From NCBI GenBank assembly GCA_043758575.1, contig JAYVNF010000261.1:1-37639 (forward strand): 37,639 nucleotides of DNA. The letters run 5' to 3'. The notes under the pieces are model-generated. The model worked only from the letters and a program-made list of their open reading frames with translations, was not told where the DNA came from and searched no databases. Position numbers and translations under genes: made by a program. This DNA comes from Rhodoferax sp. GTDB taxonomy: Bacteria; Pseudomonadota; Gammaproteobacteria; Burkholderiales; Burkholderiaceae_C. Positions 28,285-37,639 of the stretch are shown here, in pieces (position 1 is the first letter of the stretch; each line of letters begins with the position of its first letter).

Positions 28285-28929
28285 TCAGGCGGCTTGCGCC
28301 AGATAGCACAGTTGCTGCGCCAGCTGCGCTATCTGGGGACCTGCGTCGGCGCAGCTGGCGCTGCCAAAACCCCAGGGCGCCAACGCAAAGCGCAGCCCGG
28401 CGGCAGCGGCGGCCACGGCGTCTTCATCGCGGTCACCGATGTAGATAGCCGCTGCAGCCGCAATGCCCTCCAGCTGCAGCAGGCGCACCAGCAGTTCACC
28501 CTTGTCCCGTGCGCGCGGCTGCAGCGCATCCAGCGCGTACAGGCCCTGGAACAGGGGCGTCCAACCCAGATGCGCCACGATGCTGCGCGTGGGAGCAATG
28601 CGCTTGTTGGTAGCAATATAGAGGCGCAGCTGCTGCGCCCGCAGGTCGGCCAAGAGCGCTGCGATACCGTCGAAGACCCGGGTCTGCCGGTAGCCCTCCA
28701 GGTCATAGTGCTGCTTGAACGACTGCACCAGCGCCGCCCGGGTAAGAGCGTCCACGCCGCCGGTCAACAAGCCCATGGTGGCCTCCAGCGGCGGGCCAAT
28801 CAGGTCGCGCGTCAGCGGCACGTTGGGCGTGCAGCCGTGCTGCGCCAGCGCGGCGCCATAGGCCGCCAAAATGCTGCGCTCGCTGTCAATCAGCGTGCCA
28901 TCCAGATCGAAGATGACGGTGGTGATCAT
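28285..28929 (-). CDS. HAD-superfamily phosphatase (Gph-like)
   Basis: Motif I FDLDGTLIDS, motif II ATNK, motif IV YIGDRDED. Start overlaps the SDR stop (ATGA). Confidence 0.9.
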   Translation of the reverse strand: MITTVIFDLDGTLIDSERSILAAYGAALAQHGCTPNVPLTRDLIGPPLEATMGLLTGGVDALTRAALVQSFKQHYDLEGYRQTRVFDGIAALLADLRAQQLRLYIATNKRIAPTRSIVAHLGWTPLFQGLYALDALQPRARDKGELLVRLLQLEGIAAAAAIYIGDRDEDAVAAAAAGLRFALAPWGFGSASCADAGPQIAQLAQQLCYLAQAA

Positions 28930-29942
28930 GGCCGCGCTGTGGCCGCGTGGCGCTGAGCTGCGGCCATGTCCTGGATCGCGCGCTCCAGCGGCACTGTCAA
29001 ACCAAGGCCCAACTCATGGCGTGCCTTGGCGATGCTGGGGATGTAGCGGTTGCGTGCACCCGCTGAGACGCCCGCTGGTGCGCCCCGCCCGCGTATATGT
29101 ACTGGCTTGGCCGGGGCCAGCAGGTCGCGCACCAGATGCGCCAGTGCGGCCATGCTGATGGCACGGTCGGAGCCCACGTTATAGGCCTGGCCGGAGCGGC
29201 CGCGGTACAGCAGTTGCAGCAGCCAATGCGCCAGATCGCGCTGGTCCATATAGGAGCGCAGCGGCAGGCCGTCGCCCTGCACCGTGATGGCCTCTGCATA
29301 CAAGGCATCGCGCACAAAGTTGCCGATGGCAAAGTGCACATCCAGCGGCAAGTCCTGGCCGACAAAGGCGAAGCAGCGTGCATTCACCACCTCCAGCCCC
29401 TCGGTCGCCCCGTCAACCGCCCCGTAGAGCGCGCACAGATGCTCGGCGGTGCGCTTGGCCAGGCCATAGGCGTTGGCCGGGTTCAGCGGATCGGGCAGGG
29501 ACAGGCGTTCTTCCGGGATCTGCTCCAGCTCTGGCGGTTGCGGGCCATAGACGGCACCGGAACTGGTGTGCAAAAAACGCCGGGCGCCGCAGGCTTGCGC
29601 CAGCTGCAGCAGGTTGCGCGTGCCCTGCACGATTTGGTCGAAACGCTGCAGGGGCGTGAGCGCCGGGCCACGCGTAGAGTCGGTGGCGGCATGCAGGATG
29701 TAGCTGAAGCGTTGGCCGTGCGGCAGCGTGGCGGCATCGCAGACATCGCCCTGATGCCAGTGCAGCCAGGCCAGACCCTGGAACTCCGGGTAGGCCTGCG
29801 CAAAGGCGTCCACCGATCGTGTGAGCACGGTCAGCTGTGCCACCGGCTCGCCGTCGCTGGCAAGCTGCAGCAGGTGGCGCAGCAGGGCGCGGCCGAAAAA
29901 CCCGGTGCCCCCGGTCAGGAGAATGGCATCTGTGTGGCGCAT
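28926..29942 (-). CDS. Extended SDR NAD-dependent epimerase/dehydratase/reductase
   Basis: LLTGGTGFFG, HAA, TSSGAVYG, catalytic YGLAK, RSYMD and YNVGS. Likely start ATG 29942. Confidence 0.9.
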   Translation of the reverse strand: MRHTDAILLTGGTGFFGRALLRHLLQLASDGEPVAQLTVLTRSVDAFAQAYPEFQGLAWLHWHQGDVCDAATLPHGQRFSYILHAATDSTRGPALTPLQRFDQIVQGTRNLLQLAQACGARRFLHTSSGAVYGPQPPELEQIPEERLSLPDPLNPANAYGLAKRTAEHLCALYGAVDGATEGLEVVNARCFAFVGQDLPLDVHFAIGNFVRDALYAEAITVQGDGLPLRSYMDQRDLAHWLLQLLYRGRSGQAYNVGSDRAISMAALAHLVRDLLAPAKPVHIRGRGAPAGVSAGARNRYIPSIAKARHELGLGLTVPLERAIQDMAAAQRHAATARP

Positions 29943-29961
29943 ACGGGGCTGACCAGCGGCC

Positions 29962-31170
29962 TCAGTACAGCAGCACCAGCGGGTTGGGCACGCGCGCACG
30001 CAGGACCTGGGCGATGGCCCCCTGCGAGCGAAACGAGGACACCAGCACCGGGACGCCAGGGCTCTGGTCTATGCAAGCGGGCGACTGGATGGTCCAGCGC
30101 CCCATGGACTTGCCCAGCAAATTGGGGTTGCTGTCTACCACCGTGTGCACCTCACTGCCGGTCATGCGCTCCAGCGCCGGCAGCAGGCGTGCAGTGTGCG
30201 AACCGGCACCGTAGACGATCAGCGGGCCGGTCGGGACTTTGGCCAGCGCCAGCGCCCACTGCGCGTTGGACTGCTGCAAATAGCGGGCAAAGGCTTCGCC
30301 GGATTCCGGCTGCAGCGGCGCTGGCGGCTGCGCGCTGGCCACACTTGCACTTGCACTTGCACTGTCGCCTTGCGCCGCCGTGCCCGGCCACTCAAAAAGC
30401 CCCAGCAGGCTGCCCGACCCCACCATGGGCAGGGCCAGCGTTTCCACCGCCAGCGTACGAGCACCCAGCGAGGCAAACAGGTTGCACAGCGACCGGCGCG
30501 AAAAAAACTGAATGTGCTCCAGCGACAACTCGCCATGCGGCTCATTGCCCTGCGCCGTGAAGCACTCAACGGCCGGCACTTCCACCAGCACCTTGCAGCC
30601 TGGGCGCAGCTTGTGCAGCAGGGCGCTCAGGTCGCTGCGCAGATTCGGAAGGTGCTCCAGCACCGCCATGCTGCACACCAGATCGACGCGGGAAAGGTCC
30701 AGCACGCGATCGGCCTCGGCCATGCTGGCCTGGTGTATCCCGTCCACGCCATAGCGCTCCAGCGCGCACTGGGCCGACAGCGGTGCCAGATCCAACCCCT
30801 GCAGTTGCTGCCAGCCGGCGGCCTTGAAGCCGCCCAGCAAGGCGCCATCGCCACAGCCGAGGTCGGCAATCACCGCATCTTTGGCAATGTGGCGCTGGCA
30901 GAACTGCACCGTCGCGTCAATGCGGGTCTGGTCCAGCACCGAGGTGGTGGCCGGCACGTCGTACTTGGAGAGCGACTGGTAGTAGCGGCCATATTGCTCA
31001 GCGACCGGCAGTTGGTGCGCAAAGTGGAAGCCGCAATGCGTGCAACTGCCGATCACGTAGCTCATGTCCAAGCCGCCTACCGCCGCCATCTGGTTGTCAA
31101 ACAGGCGCTGCACGCTGTGCTGCGCGCAAACCGGACAGTGGCGCTCACATGAGGGTGGGGTGGCGGTCAT
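29962..31170 (-). CDS. Class I SAM-dependent methyltransferase with N-terminal Zn-binding motif (NDP-sugar C-methyltransferase-like architecture)
   Basis: CPVC...CTHCG, ADLGCGDG, AVLEHL, VEVP, EHIQFFS and a C-terminal Rossmann-like VYGAG. Confidence 0.82.
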   Translation of the reverse strand: MTATPPSCERHCPVCAQHSVQRLFDNQMAAVGGLDMSYVIGSCTHCGFHFAHQLPVAEQYGRYYQSLSKYDVPATTSVLDQTRIDATVQFCQRHIAKDAVIADLGCGDGALLGGFKAAGWQQLQGLDLAPLSAQCALERYGVDGIHQASMAEADRVLDLSRVDLVCSMAVLEHLPNLRSDLSALLHKLRPGCKVLVEVPAVECFTAQGNEPHGELSLEHIQFFSRRSLCNLFASLGARTLAVETLALPMVGSGSLLGLFEWPGTAAQGDSASASASVASAQPPAPLQPESGEAFARYLQQSNAQWALALAKVPTGPLIVYGAGSHTARLLPALERMTGSEVHTVVDSNPNLLGKSMGRWTIQSPACIDQSPGVPVLVSSFRSQGAIAQVLRARVPNPLVLLY

Positions 31171-36168: not shown

Positions 36169-36189
36169 TATTTTTACTCCTGCCTTGTA

Positions 36190-37503
36190 CTAAAAATTCA
36201 CGCCCAGATAGGACTCGATCTTGCGTGCCGCAAATTCCAGCATTTCCCGGGTCAGTGCCGGCTGCACGCCAATCCAGAAGGTGTGGTTCATGACCCGGTC
36301 GGTGTTGGTCAGTGCGCCACTGACCCGGTACGCAGCCCCAACCATATAAGGTTGGCGCGTCAGGTTTCCCGCGAAAAGCAGGCGAGTTCCCACCTTGTTC
36401 TGGTCTAAGTAGGTGAGCAAATCGAGTCTGGAAGCCGGGCAACTGTCCTTGAGCGTGATGGGAAAACCAAACCAGGACGGGTCCGAGTGCTCGGTGGCCA
36501 CGGGCAGGTGCAGAAATTCTTCGCAGGCTTTCAGGCGCTCTTTGAGAAACGCAAAGTTGGCCTTGCGTGCAGCGATGAACTGCTCGGCCTTGTCCAGCTG
36601 CGCTACGCCACAGGCCGCCTGCATGTCGGTGATCTTGAGGTTGTAGCCCAGGTGGCTGTAGGTGTACTTGTGGTCGTAGCCCGCGGGCAAATCGCCCAGC
36701 TTCTGGCAGAAGCGCTTGCCGCAGGTGTTGTCCTTGCCAGGTTGGCAGTAGCAGTCACGGCCCCAGTCGCGAAAGCTTTCGGCAATGGTCTTGAGCTGGT
36801 CGTTGTTTGTGAACACCGCCCCGCCCTCGCCCATGGTGATGTGGTGGGCCGGGTAAAAACTCAGGGTGGCAATGTCGCCAAAAGTGCCCACCATCTGCCC
36901 GCGGTAGGTGCTGCCCAGGGCGTCGCAGCAGTCCTCTATGAGCCACAGGCCGTGCTGCTTGCATAGAGCCGTGACCACGTCCAGGTTGAACGGGTTGCCC
37001 AGGCTGTGGGCCAGCATGATGGCTTTGGTCTTGGGGCCTATGGCGGCCTCGATCAAGCTGGCGTCGATGTTGTGGGTGAGCGGGTCCACGTCCACAAACA
37101 CCGGCACCGCACCGAACTGCAGAATCGGATTCACCGTGGTCGGGAAACCGGCGGCCACGCCGATCACCTCGTCGCCTTTTTGAATGGCGCGGGCGCCCAG
37201 GGCCGGCGAGGTCAGCGTGCTAAAGGCCACCAGGTTGGCAGACGAGCCCGAGTTCACCGTGATCAAGTGCTTCACACCGATAAAGGCGGCCAGCTTTTTC
37301 TCGAATTCGGCGTTGAAGCGTCCGGTGGTGAGCCAGCCGTCCAGGCTGGCCTCCACCATGTTCTTGAGCTCGGCCGCGTCCAGCAGCTTGCCCGAAGGCG
37401 GCACGGCGCTCAGGCCCGGCAAAAAGGGTTGCGGCGCCAAGGACAGGGCTGCATATTGCTCTACCAGTGCGGCAATGGCCGCGCGTATCTCTTCTTTGTT
37501 CAC
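36190..37503 (-). CDS. rfbH: CDP-4-keto-6-deoxy-D-glucose 3-dehydrase (E1)
   Basis: 437 aa from a GTG start. [14 protein letters not shown] has His in place of the aminotransferase Lys; Fe-S cysteines in RDCYC...[18 protein letters not shown]. Confidence 0.95.
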
Positions 37504-37639
37504 GCGAGTGCCTCGTAAGCTTCTATATCGGATTGGCACAGCGCCAGGGCGCTCTCACCCAGGTGCTGTGCGCGGTACCAGGCCATGCTGCGCTGCAGGG
37601 TCTGCTGCAGCGTCCAGCGCGGGCGAAAGCCCAGCAGGC
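37500..37639 (-). CDS. rfbG: 3' end of probable CDP-glucose 4,6-dehydratase (partial)
   Basis: Own translation [23 protein letters not shown]...[13 protein letters not shown], with the stop overlapping the rfbH GTG. Matches the typical RfbG C-terminus and gene order. Confidence 0.75.

What the first reader, a model, noticed from the sequence alone, without database searches (positions are those of the whole stretch)
28285..37639. Candidate pathway for a long C4-branched, methylated 3,6-dideoxy sugar, using a NeuB-like synthase as ketoacid supplier
Seen: a tightly packed operon rfbG, rfbH, NeuB-like, ThDP enzyme, FkbM MT, TylF MT, SAM MT, SDR, HAD, with no CMP-sugar synthetase (NeuA) in the visible part. 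Established: RfbG/RfbH make CDP-4-keto-3,6-dideoxyglucose. In yersiniose synthesis a ThDP enzyme (YerE) decarboxylates a 2-keto acid and adds it at C4, and an SDR (YerF) reduces the ketone. The branched sugars erwiniose and caryophyllose have CHOH-CH2-CHOH side chains, the skeleton of a 2-keto-3-deoxy acid. Inference: the NeuB-like enzyme condenses PEP with an aldose or aldose phosphate, the HAD enzyme dephosphorylates the product, and the 2-keto-3-deoxy acid becomes the ThDP donor. This would give a caryophyllose-like higher-carbon sugar, methylated and attached to flagellin. I know of no description of such a flagellin glycan or of this use of NeuB.
Basis: partly seen in the sequence, partly recalled or inferred. 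Interest (0 to 1): 0.85.

Follow-up and report, generated by a model that had tools for sequence, protein, structure and literature searches.

The report
Sialic-synthase relative supplies flagellar sugar branch
An intact nine-gene sugar operon beside this bacterium's flagellin genes likely builds a rare deoxy sugar with a long carbon side chain, using a relative of sialic-acid synthase where published pathways use an aldolase, and probably attaches it to flagellin through a neighbouring giant predicted glycosyltransferase.

Summary
Observation confirmed: rfbG(tail)-rfbH-NeuB-like-ThDP-FkbM-TylF-MT-SDR-HAD is real. The operon starts at rfbF beside flhD on the abutting contig, so no neuA lies upstream. 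The NeuB-like gene is a separate subfamily. It keeps the PEP/metal catalytic residues but has lost Arg314 and Asp247 of sialic-acid synthase. Among 80 related loci, 73 carry a YerE/ErwE-type ThDP enzyme and none a CMP-transferase (controls: 18 of 20). In eight loci sampled by the ThDP gene, each had exactly one donor supplier: NeuB-like (1) or a pyruvate aldolase (7). So NeuB-like most likely replaces the aldolase of the published acyl-branched-sugar scheme (Steitz 2022). An unclassified, predicted GT-B domain that tracks such clusters is fused to the giant GT41 gene next to fliC, linking the sugar to flagellin. Against: HAD is missing in 22 of 52 long loci, only 12 of 80 loci are flagellar, and no chemistry was tested. 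The core chemistry is published; the NeuB donor route and flagellar target were not found in my searches. The scan found this cassette before on other DNA. New variant of a known kind.

The parts
37500..37639 (-). 3' end (45 codons) of rfbG, CDP-glucose 4,6-dehydratase; the rest of rfbG, rfbF and a divergent flhD are on the abutting contig C123
36190..37503 (-). rfbH/DdhC-type CDP-4-keto-6-deoxyglucose 3-dehydrase (His in place of the aminotransferase Lys in SFYPAHH, Cys-rich motif; signature meaning recalled); no rfbI/E3 gene in the operon
   Evidence: (NF011936, 734 bits)
35059..36168 (-). Divergent NeuB-family PEP-dependent synthase (TIM barrel plus SAF domain), 369 aa; inferred supplier of a 2-keto-3-deoxy acid
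33175..35058 (-). YerE/ErwE-type ThDP carboligase, GDG motif, C-terminal tail shared with ErwE; starts directly after the NeuB-like stop
32028..33188 (-). FkbM-family methyltransferase
31219..31983 (-). TylF-family sugar O-methyltransferase (accessory: 12 of 80 loci)
29962..31170 (-). SAM methyltransferase with N-terminal Cys pairs and weak likeness to sugar C-methyltransferases (accessory: 13 of 80 loci)
28926..29942 (-). Extended SDR (TGGTGFFG, YGLAK), inferred YerF/ErwF-like side-chain ketoreductase; homologues (33-44%) also sit in the aldolase-type clusters. Longest ORF starts at 29999; the ATG at 29942 is the likelier start
28285..28929 (-). HAD phosphatase (DLDGT, GDRDED); inferred to dephosphorylate the NeuB-like product
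21630..28274 (+). 2214-aa protein with three TPR+GT41 units and an extra C-terminal domain; begins 15 nt after fliC and converges on the operon with 10 nt between the stops
27582..28274 (+). 'GTc': C-terminal ~230-aa domain of the GT41 protein, no Pfam match, predicted minimal GT-B fold, enriched in acyl-branched CDP-sugar clusters; candidate transferase for the branched sugar
20802..21614 (+). Flagellin 1 (270 aa, short Ser/Thr-rich middle), inferred acceptor
19638..20465 (-). Flagellin 2 (82% identical to flagellin 1), inferred acceptor

Best explanation
The operon likely makes a methylated CDP-3,6-dideoxyhexose with a long polyhydroxy branch at C4, whose side chain is likely supplied by the NeuB-like synthase in place of the usual pyruvate aldolase, and the adjacent giant predicted glycosyltransferase probably puts it on flagellin. 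Steps: RfbF, RfbG and RfbH make CDP-4-keto-3,6-dideoxyglucose (family membership shown; chemistry from established knowledge). The NeuB-like enzyme condenses PEP with a non-acetamido aldose, probably a central-metabolism aldose phosphate because no kinase or isomerase is in this operon (inferred). The HAD removes the phosphate (inferred, weakest step). The ThDP enzyme decarboxylates the 2-keto-3-deoxy acid and adds it to C4, and the SDR reduces the new ketone (by analogy with ErwE/ErwF, PMC9306805). Three methyltransferases cap hydroxyls (sites unknown). The GT41 units would start a glycan on flagellin Ser/Thr and the C-terminal GTc domain would add the branched sugar (inferred). Chain length and stereochemistry cannot be read from sequence.
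For: (a) Co-occurrence: ThDP in 73 of 80 loci (51 of 52 long ones), rfbH in 43 of 52, across many phyla; control NeuB loci 1 of 20. (b) No CMP-transferase in 80 loci against 18 of 20 controls. Whole genomes of 3 of 5 carriers had one strong PF02348 match, one had none strong, one had an extra partial match. (c) Displacement: of 8 genomes picked by the ThDP gene alone, 1 has the NeuB-like gene, 6 an HpcH/HpaI aldolase and 1 a DmpG aldolase plus acetaldehyde dehydrogenase, never two. Those aldolase queries hit 0 of the 80 NeuB loci. Their ThDP enzymes interleave in one tree. (d) In the shared SDR+DHQS-like accessory block, an FGGY kinase is present in 8 of 9 NeuB loci and 0 of 5 aldolase loci, and HAD in 7 of 9 against 0 of 5, as expected if NeuB-like needs a phosphorylated aldose. 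(e) Catalytic residues matching N. meningitidis NeuB Glu25, Gln55, Thr110, Phe112, Lys129, Tyr186, Ser213, His215, Glu234 are kept in 79-80 of 80; Arg314 becomes I/V in 80 of 80 (R/K in 31 of 32 controls) and Asp247 becomes Val in 80 of 80 (D in 32 of 32). (f) GTc is in 14 of 80 NeuB loci and 0 of 40 controls. In a 399-genome class sample it shares 4 of its 7 genomes with the 8 ThDP genomes (p 2e-6, kin not independent). Its model (pLDDT 94) matches GT-B enzymes best. (g) The operon fills the flhD-fliC slot; a same-genus genome has a different CDP-sugar branching cassette in that slot. GT41 and FkbM genes are typical of flagellin glycosylation islands (PMC4875605).
Against: No activity or glycan was tested. 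HAD is missing within 10 kb in 22 of 52 long loci, and HADs also occur in two aldolase loci. One full-length NeuB locus (L053) lacks the ThDP gene. Two of seven sister-clade NeuB-cupin loci (L138, L158) have a CMP-transferase next door, so close relatives can feed CMP activation. The genome is 87.9% complete, and its KdsB could in principle activate a Kdo-like product. Only 12 of 80 loci are flagellar; GTc also occurs beside ABC-2 transporter genes of O-antigen type (L180, L182) and in two loci with neither ThDP nor flagellin (L185, L186). The GTc fold match is modest (TM 0.41). The ThDP-first sample is small (8) and its cut-off (E 1e-75) favours enzymes like this one, so pyruvate-only YerE clusters may be missed. 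No rfbI/E3 gene is in the operon. The ThDP enzyme's closest solved relative type, JanthE, accepts pyruvate as well as longer donors (PMC12188165).
Confidence: 0.62

Rival explanations
1. The same long-branched sugar is made, but it decorates LPS or another surface glycan or protein, and the position among flagellar genes is incidental.
For: 68 of 80 related loci show no flagellar gene within 10 kb and 15 carry GtrA-type genes; GTc occurs in ABC-2/O-antigen-type loci; all published sugars of this kind are from LPS or lipooligosaccharide.
Against: This operon has no flippase, GtrA or GT2 gene, and tblastn found no GtrA match in the genome. Here GTc is fused to a TPR+GT41 protein starting 15 nt after fliC. 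Five Pseudomonas loci and an Acidovorax locus hold GTc and the cassette beside fliC.
Confidence: 0.16
2. Two separate products: the ThDP enzyme uses pyruvate to make a yersiniose-type sugar, and the NeuB-like enzyme makes a free ulosonic acid activated by KdsB or an unassembled NeuA.
For: Sister-clade genes L138 and L158 sit beside CMP-transferases; the genome is incomplete; YerE-like enzymes can accept pyruvate.
Against: 0 of 80 loci with a CMP-transferase; an Actinomycetota carrier has no strong PF02348 match at all; NeuB-like and aldolase genes replace one another beside the same ThDP clade; the NeuB-like and ThDP genes abut with no gap.
Confidence: 0.1
3. The donor route is right but phosphate handling differs: the synthase takes a free aldose, or the ThDP enzyme takes the phosphorylated acid and the HAD acts later or is dispensable.
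For: HAD absent in 22 of 52 long loci, including all five Pseudomonas flagellar loci; HAD is the last gene here; canonical bacterial NeuB uses free ManNAc (PMC8208679).
Against: The FGGY kinase travels with NeuB-like and not with aldolase loci. Arg56 is invariant and shared with one KDN-9-phosphate-synthase-like control (L156; label is my reading), and Asp129 matches the E134D change tentatively linked to phosphorylated substrates.
Confidence: 0.12

Closest known systems
Acyl-branched sugar pathways: erwiniose (ErwI/ErwJ/ErwE/ErwF), caryophyllose (MMAR_2331/2332), R. palustris C6-branched sugar, gastriose (Steitz et al. 2022, PMC9306805)
   Same: CDP-keto-deoxysugar genes, a ThDP carboligase with the ErwE-like C-terminal tail, an SDR reductase, one gene that supplies a 4-hydroxy-2-keto acid; a methyltransferase in the R. 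palustris cluster.
   Different: The supplier here is a PEP-dependent NeuB-fold enzyme plus HAD, not a pyruvate aldolase; three methyltransferases; the locus is in the flagellar region with a GT41 protein, not an LPS/LOS locus. Whether M. gastri's 'aldolase MygI' is itself NeuB-like could not be checked.
Yersiniose A pathway (YerE/YerF)
   Same: Same acceptor sugar, ThDP branching, SDR reduction (as described in PMC9306805).
   Different: YerE uses pyruvate and needs no donor-making gene; this operon has one directly before the ThDP gene.
NeuB/PseI/LegI nonulosonic-acid synthases and NanS/KDN-9-P synthases
   Same: PF03102 above cut-off, TIM barrel plus SAF fold (TM 0.74 to 1XUU), PEP and metal residues kept; NanS-type systems also use a phosphatase.
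   Different: 21-25% identity, below NeuB and PseI equivalog cut-offs, Arg314 and Asp247 lost, no amino-sugar genes and no CMP-transferase.
PDB 3G8R, 'putative spore coat polysaccharide biosynthesis protein E' of Chromobacterium violaceum
   Same: Closest solved structure (34% identity, TM 0.85); same KLQxR and basic-loop motifs.
   Different: Resembles the sister clade (KLQYR, IKIASCS), which in the loci read here has a C-terminal cupin; structural-genomics entry, and I found no paper on its function.
GT41-type flagellin glycosylation islands (PMC4875605)
   Same: SPINDLY-like GT41 and FkbM/AdoMet methyltransferase genes next to fliC; one island type has CDP-4-keto-6-deoxyglucose genes.
   Different: That survey's main text has no NeuB, thiamine or yersiniose mention; here three GT41 units are fused to an unclassified GT-B domain.

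Membership tests
Acyl-branched CDP-deoxysugar cluster (YerE/ErwE type) | Genes for CDP-4-keto-3,6-dideoxyglucose (rfbF, rfbG, rfbH) | tested here: met
   rfbI/E3 not in the operon
Acyl-branched CDP-deoxysugar cluster (YerE/ErwE type) | ThDP carboligase of the YerE/ErwE subgroup, distinct from AHAS | tested here: met
   Far below AHAS cut-offs; best PDB 8RPH E 1e-96 against AHAS 1e-65; groups with aldolase-cluster enzymes away from three housekeeping ThDP enzymes; tail matches printed ErwE by eye
Acyl-branched CDP-deoxysugar cluster (YerE/ErwE type) | NAD(P)H side-chain reductase | tested here: met
   Extended SDR with intact motifs; homologues in aldolase-type clusters; not aligned to YerF itself
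Long-branch subtype (erwiniose/caryophyllose) | Pyruvate aldolase (DmpG/BphI or HpcH type) supplying the donor | tested here: not met
   No aldolase in the operon or in 80 related loci; NeuB-like in its place
Acyl-branched CDP-deoxysugar cluster (YerE/ErwE type) | Carboligation of a keto acid onto the CDP-keto sugar; branched sugar in a glycan | not testable with these tools
   needs enzymology and NMR
Gastriose cluster of M. gastri | Donor gene of the same family as MygI | not tested
   No MygI accession or sequence in the main text or the supplement searches; the genome could not be reached by name
NeuB superfamily (PEP-dependent ulosonate synthases) | PF03102 domain, TIM barrel plus SAF fold, metal and PEP residues | tested here: met
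   118 bits vs 22.1; model pLDDT 91, TM 0.74-0.85; residues
Sialic/pseudaminic/legionaminic acid synthases | Equivalog score cut-off | tested here: not met
   113 vs 340 (PseI) and 99.5 vs 400 (NeuB)
Sialic/pseudaminic/legionaminic acid synthases | Arg314 of the SAF domain that places the N-acetyl group | tested here: not met
   I/V in 80 of 80, R/K in 31 of 32 controls
Sialic/pseudaminic/legionaminic acid synthases | Linked CMP-transferase and amino-sugar genes | tested here: not met
   0 of 80 loci vs 18 of 20 controls; none in this operon
Flagellin glycosylation island | Glycosyltransferase and sugar genes adjacent to fliC, variable among kin | tested here: met
   of 16 same-genus genomes read, 14 have flhD directly beside fliC, 2 have rfbF there, one with a different cassette
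Flagellin glycosylation island | Glycan on flagellin that depends on these genes | not testable with these tools
   needs mass spectrometry of flagella
GT-B glycosyltransferase (GTc domain) | Two Rossmann-like domains matching solved GT-B enzymes | tested here: inconclusive
   Best Foldseek hits are glycosyltransferases (E 9e-7) but TM 0.41; a homologue's Atlas model matches GT4/WavQ clusters at TM 0.61-0.65; no Pfam family

The most novel reading that the evidence does not exclude
A widespread NeuB subfamily has left sialic-acid-type synthesis and makes nitrogen-free 2-keto-3-deoxy acids that are never CMP-activated but are decarboxylated and grafted as carbon chains onto a CDP-sugar. An unclassified minimal GT-B family transfers such branched sugars, and here it is fused to a triple GT41 enzyme, giving a flagellin glycan capped by a higher-carbon C4-branched, multiply methylated sugar of a kind not found reported on any protein.
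Probability: 0.45. Interest if true: 0.72.

Novelty: new variant of a known kind. Interest (0 to 1): 0.55.

Why it matters
It would give a function to a large NeuB subfamily that databases label 'N-acetylneuraminate synthase' or 'SpsE', and close to an orphan structure (3G8R), so genomes now read as sialic-acid producers would make something else. It extends the 2022 scheme for long-branched sugars with a PEP-driven donor route, which could give ThDP carboligases with new polyhydroxy donors for biocatalysis. It names a candidate transferase family for these sugars. Cultured carriers with the cassette beside fliC (Rhodoferax antarcticus L008, Acidovorax sp. L031, Pseudomonas L036-L054) make the flagellin claim directly testable.

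Tried and rejected
Canonical Neu/Pse/Leg synthesis: rejected (cut-offs, residues, no partners). neuA just upstream: rejected by the contig join. 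A carbocyclic (DHQ-synthase-type) product: not applicable here, as the operon has no such gene; DHQS-like genes occur in 9 of 80 NeuB loci and also in aldolase loci. No match for the NeuB-like protein at E 1e-40 in annotated plasmids or phages, so no strain with a known glycan was reached that way. No solved relative of the third methyltransferase; its likeness to C-methyltransferases is weak (23%), so C- versus O-methylation is open. A search of 301 genomes of an Actinomycetota carrier's phylum gave 3 matches and did not address M. gastri. The careful NeuB tree did not finish; the quick tree on 70 rows (about a third of the 80 subfamily loci kept) was used, with long branches among the controls. 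The promoter scan of 27800-29200 found nothing beyond chance. One RNA run had scattered short pieces over the locus: share 0.06, not evidence of expression. The paper search 'NeuB'+'YerE' returned only unrelated word matches. No complex prediction was run, since no binding is claimed.

Full report
Observation. The window is contig C261 of a 3.46-Mb, 87.9% complete genome, probably a Rhodoferax-like betaproteobacterium (inferred from synteny and identity with named loci L008 and L011). From 37639 down to 28285 the minus strand carries the rfbG tail, rfbH, a NeuB-family gene, a ThDP enzyme, FkbM, TylF and a third methyltransferase, an extended SDR and a HAD phosphatase, with gaps of -38 to +48 nt between the called ORFs. 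The rest of rfbG, rfbF and a divergent flhD end contig C123, and the two RfbG pieces leave about 2 codons unaccounted for against a relative's gene. The operon therefore starts at rfbF and has no neuA. The only CMP-transferase-family match in the genome is a KdsB-like gene beside adk. Facing the operon is a 2214-aa TPR/GT41 protein that begins 15 nt after one of two short flagellin genes. GC content and GC3 match the flagellar genes.

The NeuB-like protein. It passes PF03102 but is far below the NeuB and PseI equivalog cut-offs. Its model (pLDDT 91) matches 3G8R from Chromobacterium violaceum best (TM 0.85), then N. meningitidis NeuB (TM 0.74). In a quick tree of 70 rows the subfamily is one side of a branch with support 100, next to a NeuB-cupin clade, and both are on a long branch from canonical synthases (the careful tree did not finish). 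Residues matching Glu25, Gln55, Thr110, Phe112, Lys129, Tyr186, Ser213, His215 and Glu234, listed as ligand contacts in PMC6795526 (passages), are kept in 79-80 of 80 members. Arg314, which that paper says places the N-acetyl group, aligns to Ile317 and is I/V in 80 of 80 against R/K in 31 of 32 controls. Asp247 (numbered; its sugar-binding role is recalled) is Val in 80 of 80 against Asp in 32 of 32. New invariant basic residues (Arg56, Arg73, Lys77) and Asp129 at the Glu134 position fit a phosphorylated substrate; PMC8208679 (passages) raises that link for E134D only tentatively. So the enzyme looks like an active PEP synthase for a different, non-acetamido aldose. That is inference.

Neighbourhood test. 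A scan of GTDB genomes gave 97 confirmed relatives, of which the best 80 were kept (some are near-duplicates). A YerE-type ThDP gene lies within 10 kb in 73 of 80; six of the seven misses are contigs under 7 kb and one (L053) is a true miss. Among the 52 loci of at least 17 kb: ThDP 51, rfbH 43, rfbF 43, rfbG 38, FkbM 32, HAD 30, flagellar genes 11, GtrA 11. A CMP-transferase profile built here hit 0 of the 80, but 18 of 20 control loci, which I chose from the top PF03102 matches for long flanks. Whole-genome checks on 5 carriers found one strong match in three, none strong in one, and one strong plus one partial in the fifth. Against exclusivity, 2 of 7 sister-clade NeuB-cupin loci do have a CMP-transferase beside them; the other 5 have the ThDP gene.

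Displacement test. Steitz et al. 2022 (PMC9306805; I read parts 1-2 of 3 of the text, searched the supplement and read its part 6) showed that ErwE couples 4-hydroxy-2-oxopentanoate, not pyruvate, to a ketone, and proposed that an aldolase supplies such donors in every long-branch cluster. I sampled loci by the ThDP gene alone: 8 of 399 other genomes of the class matched at E 1e-75. One has the NeuB-like gene, six an HpcH/HpaI aldolase (three of the family confirmed by Pfam, the rest by 59-66% identity) and one a DmpG aldolase with acetaldehyde dehydrogenase; none has two. These aldolase queries found nothing in the 80 NeuB loci. ThDP enzymes of both kinds interleave in one tree. Where the cassette includes the same SDR plus DHQ-synthase-like pair, an FGGY kinase comes with NeuB-like in 8 of 9 loci and with the aldolase in 0 of 5, and HAD in 7 of 9 against 0 of 5. 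This is the strongest evidence that NeuB-like fills the donor role and uses a phosphorylated aldose. Limits: the sample is small, kin are not independent, and the cut-off may exclude pyruvate-only YerE clusters. HAD is also absent from 22 of 52 long NeuB loci even with a local profile, so a chromosomal phosphatase or a different order of steps is possible.

Link to flagellin. The last ~230 residues of the GT41 protein (GTc) have no Pfam match but have homologues in 14 of 80 NeuB loci and 0 of 40 control loci. In five Pseudomonas loci GTc begins a gene between rfbH and the NeuB-like gene, upstream of fliC. An independent search found GTc in 7 of 399 genomes, 4 of them among the 8 ThDP genomes. 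Of its 8 places, 4 lie beside a YerE-type ThDP gene, 2 beside fliC and 2 in neither setting. In one of the four shared genomes (G645) GTc is beside fliC and the cassette is on another contig. The model (pLDDT 94) matches GT-B glycosyltransferases best, though only at TM 0.41; a homologue's Atlas model matches GT4/WavQ clusters at TM 0.61-0.65. Because GTc also occurs in ABC-2/O-antigen-type loci, it more likely adds the sugar to a glycan than to protein, with the GT41 units priming flagellin. Of 16 same-genus genomes read at flhD, 14 have fliC directly there, one has rfbF at a contig end, and one has rfbF, rfbG, a C-methyltransferase, a two-subunit ThDP dehydrogenase-type pair, TylF, SDR and GT41: the slot is a variable glycosylation island. 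PMC4875605 (passages) reports GT41 and FkbM genes as common in such islands, by prediction. PMC4462625 (passages) calls FlmQ a predicted flagellin glycosyltransferase.

Novelty. The branching chemistry and the 2-keto-3-deoxy-acid donor are published. I found no paper on a NeuB-type donor or on such a sugar on flagellin in searches of the open library, nor in passages of PMC12247030, PMC12188165 or PMC9912281. I could not see the original JanthE paper, the in-silico study of over 200 YerE-like clusters cited in PMC12247030, or the cluster figures of Steitz et al., and any of these may show NeuB genes. That 8RPH is JanthE is recalled, supported by its CDG motif. Earlier notes of this scan describe the same cassette on other DNA; one says M. 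gastri already has this type. The paper calls MygI only an aldolase, and the printed MyGE lacks the ErwE-type tail seen here (by eye), so I could neither confirm nor exclude that.

Verdict. Real, and most likely a PEP/NeuB-fed variant of the acyl-branched sugar pathway (about 0.8 for the donor role, about 0.75 for flagellin given that, 0.62 jointly). New variant of a known kind; interest 0.55.

Noticed in passing
L166:10968-18900 (G626, same genus): The flhD-fliC slot holds rfbF, rfbG, RmlC-like epimerase, C-methyltransferase, E1alpha/E1beta ThDP pair, lipoyl/hexapeptide protein, TylF and SDR: an alpha-keto-acid-dehydrogenase-type branching cassette, a chemistry described for antibiotic sugars, next to flagellin. 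A HipA-like gene lies beside it.
   Followed up: partly
L191:9100-12852 (G1031): An erwiniose-type cluster (DmpG aldolase plus acetaldehyde dehydrogenase) whose ThDP enzyme has the CDG motif described for JanthE.
   Followed up: partly
L138:8909-11512, L158: NeuB-cupin (lyxose-isomerase-like) fusions of the sister clade that sit beside a CMP-transferase instead of a ThDP gene: possibly an undescribed CMP-activated nitrogen-free ulosonic acid.
   Followed up: partly
L021, L029, L046, L048, L050, L055, L067, L080, L084; L180-L182, L188, L189: A conserved short-chain dehydrogenase plus DHQ-synthase-like pair, with an FGGY kinase only in NeuB-type loci; probably makes a special deoxy-aldose, function unknown.
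   Followed up: partly
L053 (Pelagibacteraceae MAG): The one full-length locus with the NeuB-like gene, rfbF, rfbG and HAD but no ThDP gene and no CMP-transferase within 10 kb.
   Followed up: no
L169:6406-19899, L171:1-13500, L173:6368-19900: Several same-genus genomes have an ORF of over 13 kb between the flagellin region and fliF, beside type I secretion genes (ABC, HlyD, outer-membrane efflux); not annotated here.
   Followed up: no
(Atlas clusters of GTc homologue P0218): Look-alike clusters are largely viral (Nucleocytoviricota, Uroviricota), so the GTc family may also serve virus glycan synthesis.
   Followed up: no
L120 (G128): A canonical LegI-like neuB lies between rfbGH and a YerE-type ThDP gene with no CMP-transferase within 10 kb; may be an independent recruitment or a mosaic locus.
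   Followed up: no
window:19638-21614: Two divergent short flagellins (270-275 aa, 82% identical) with a very small Ser/Thr-rich middle; most same-genus relatives read have 480-590-aa flagellins.
   Followed up: partly
G000:C268:13009-14142: A second GT41-like gene elsewhere in the genome (about 41% identity over 375 aa).
   Followed up: no
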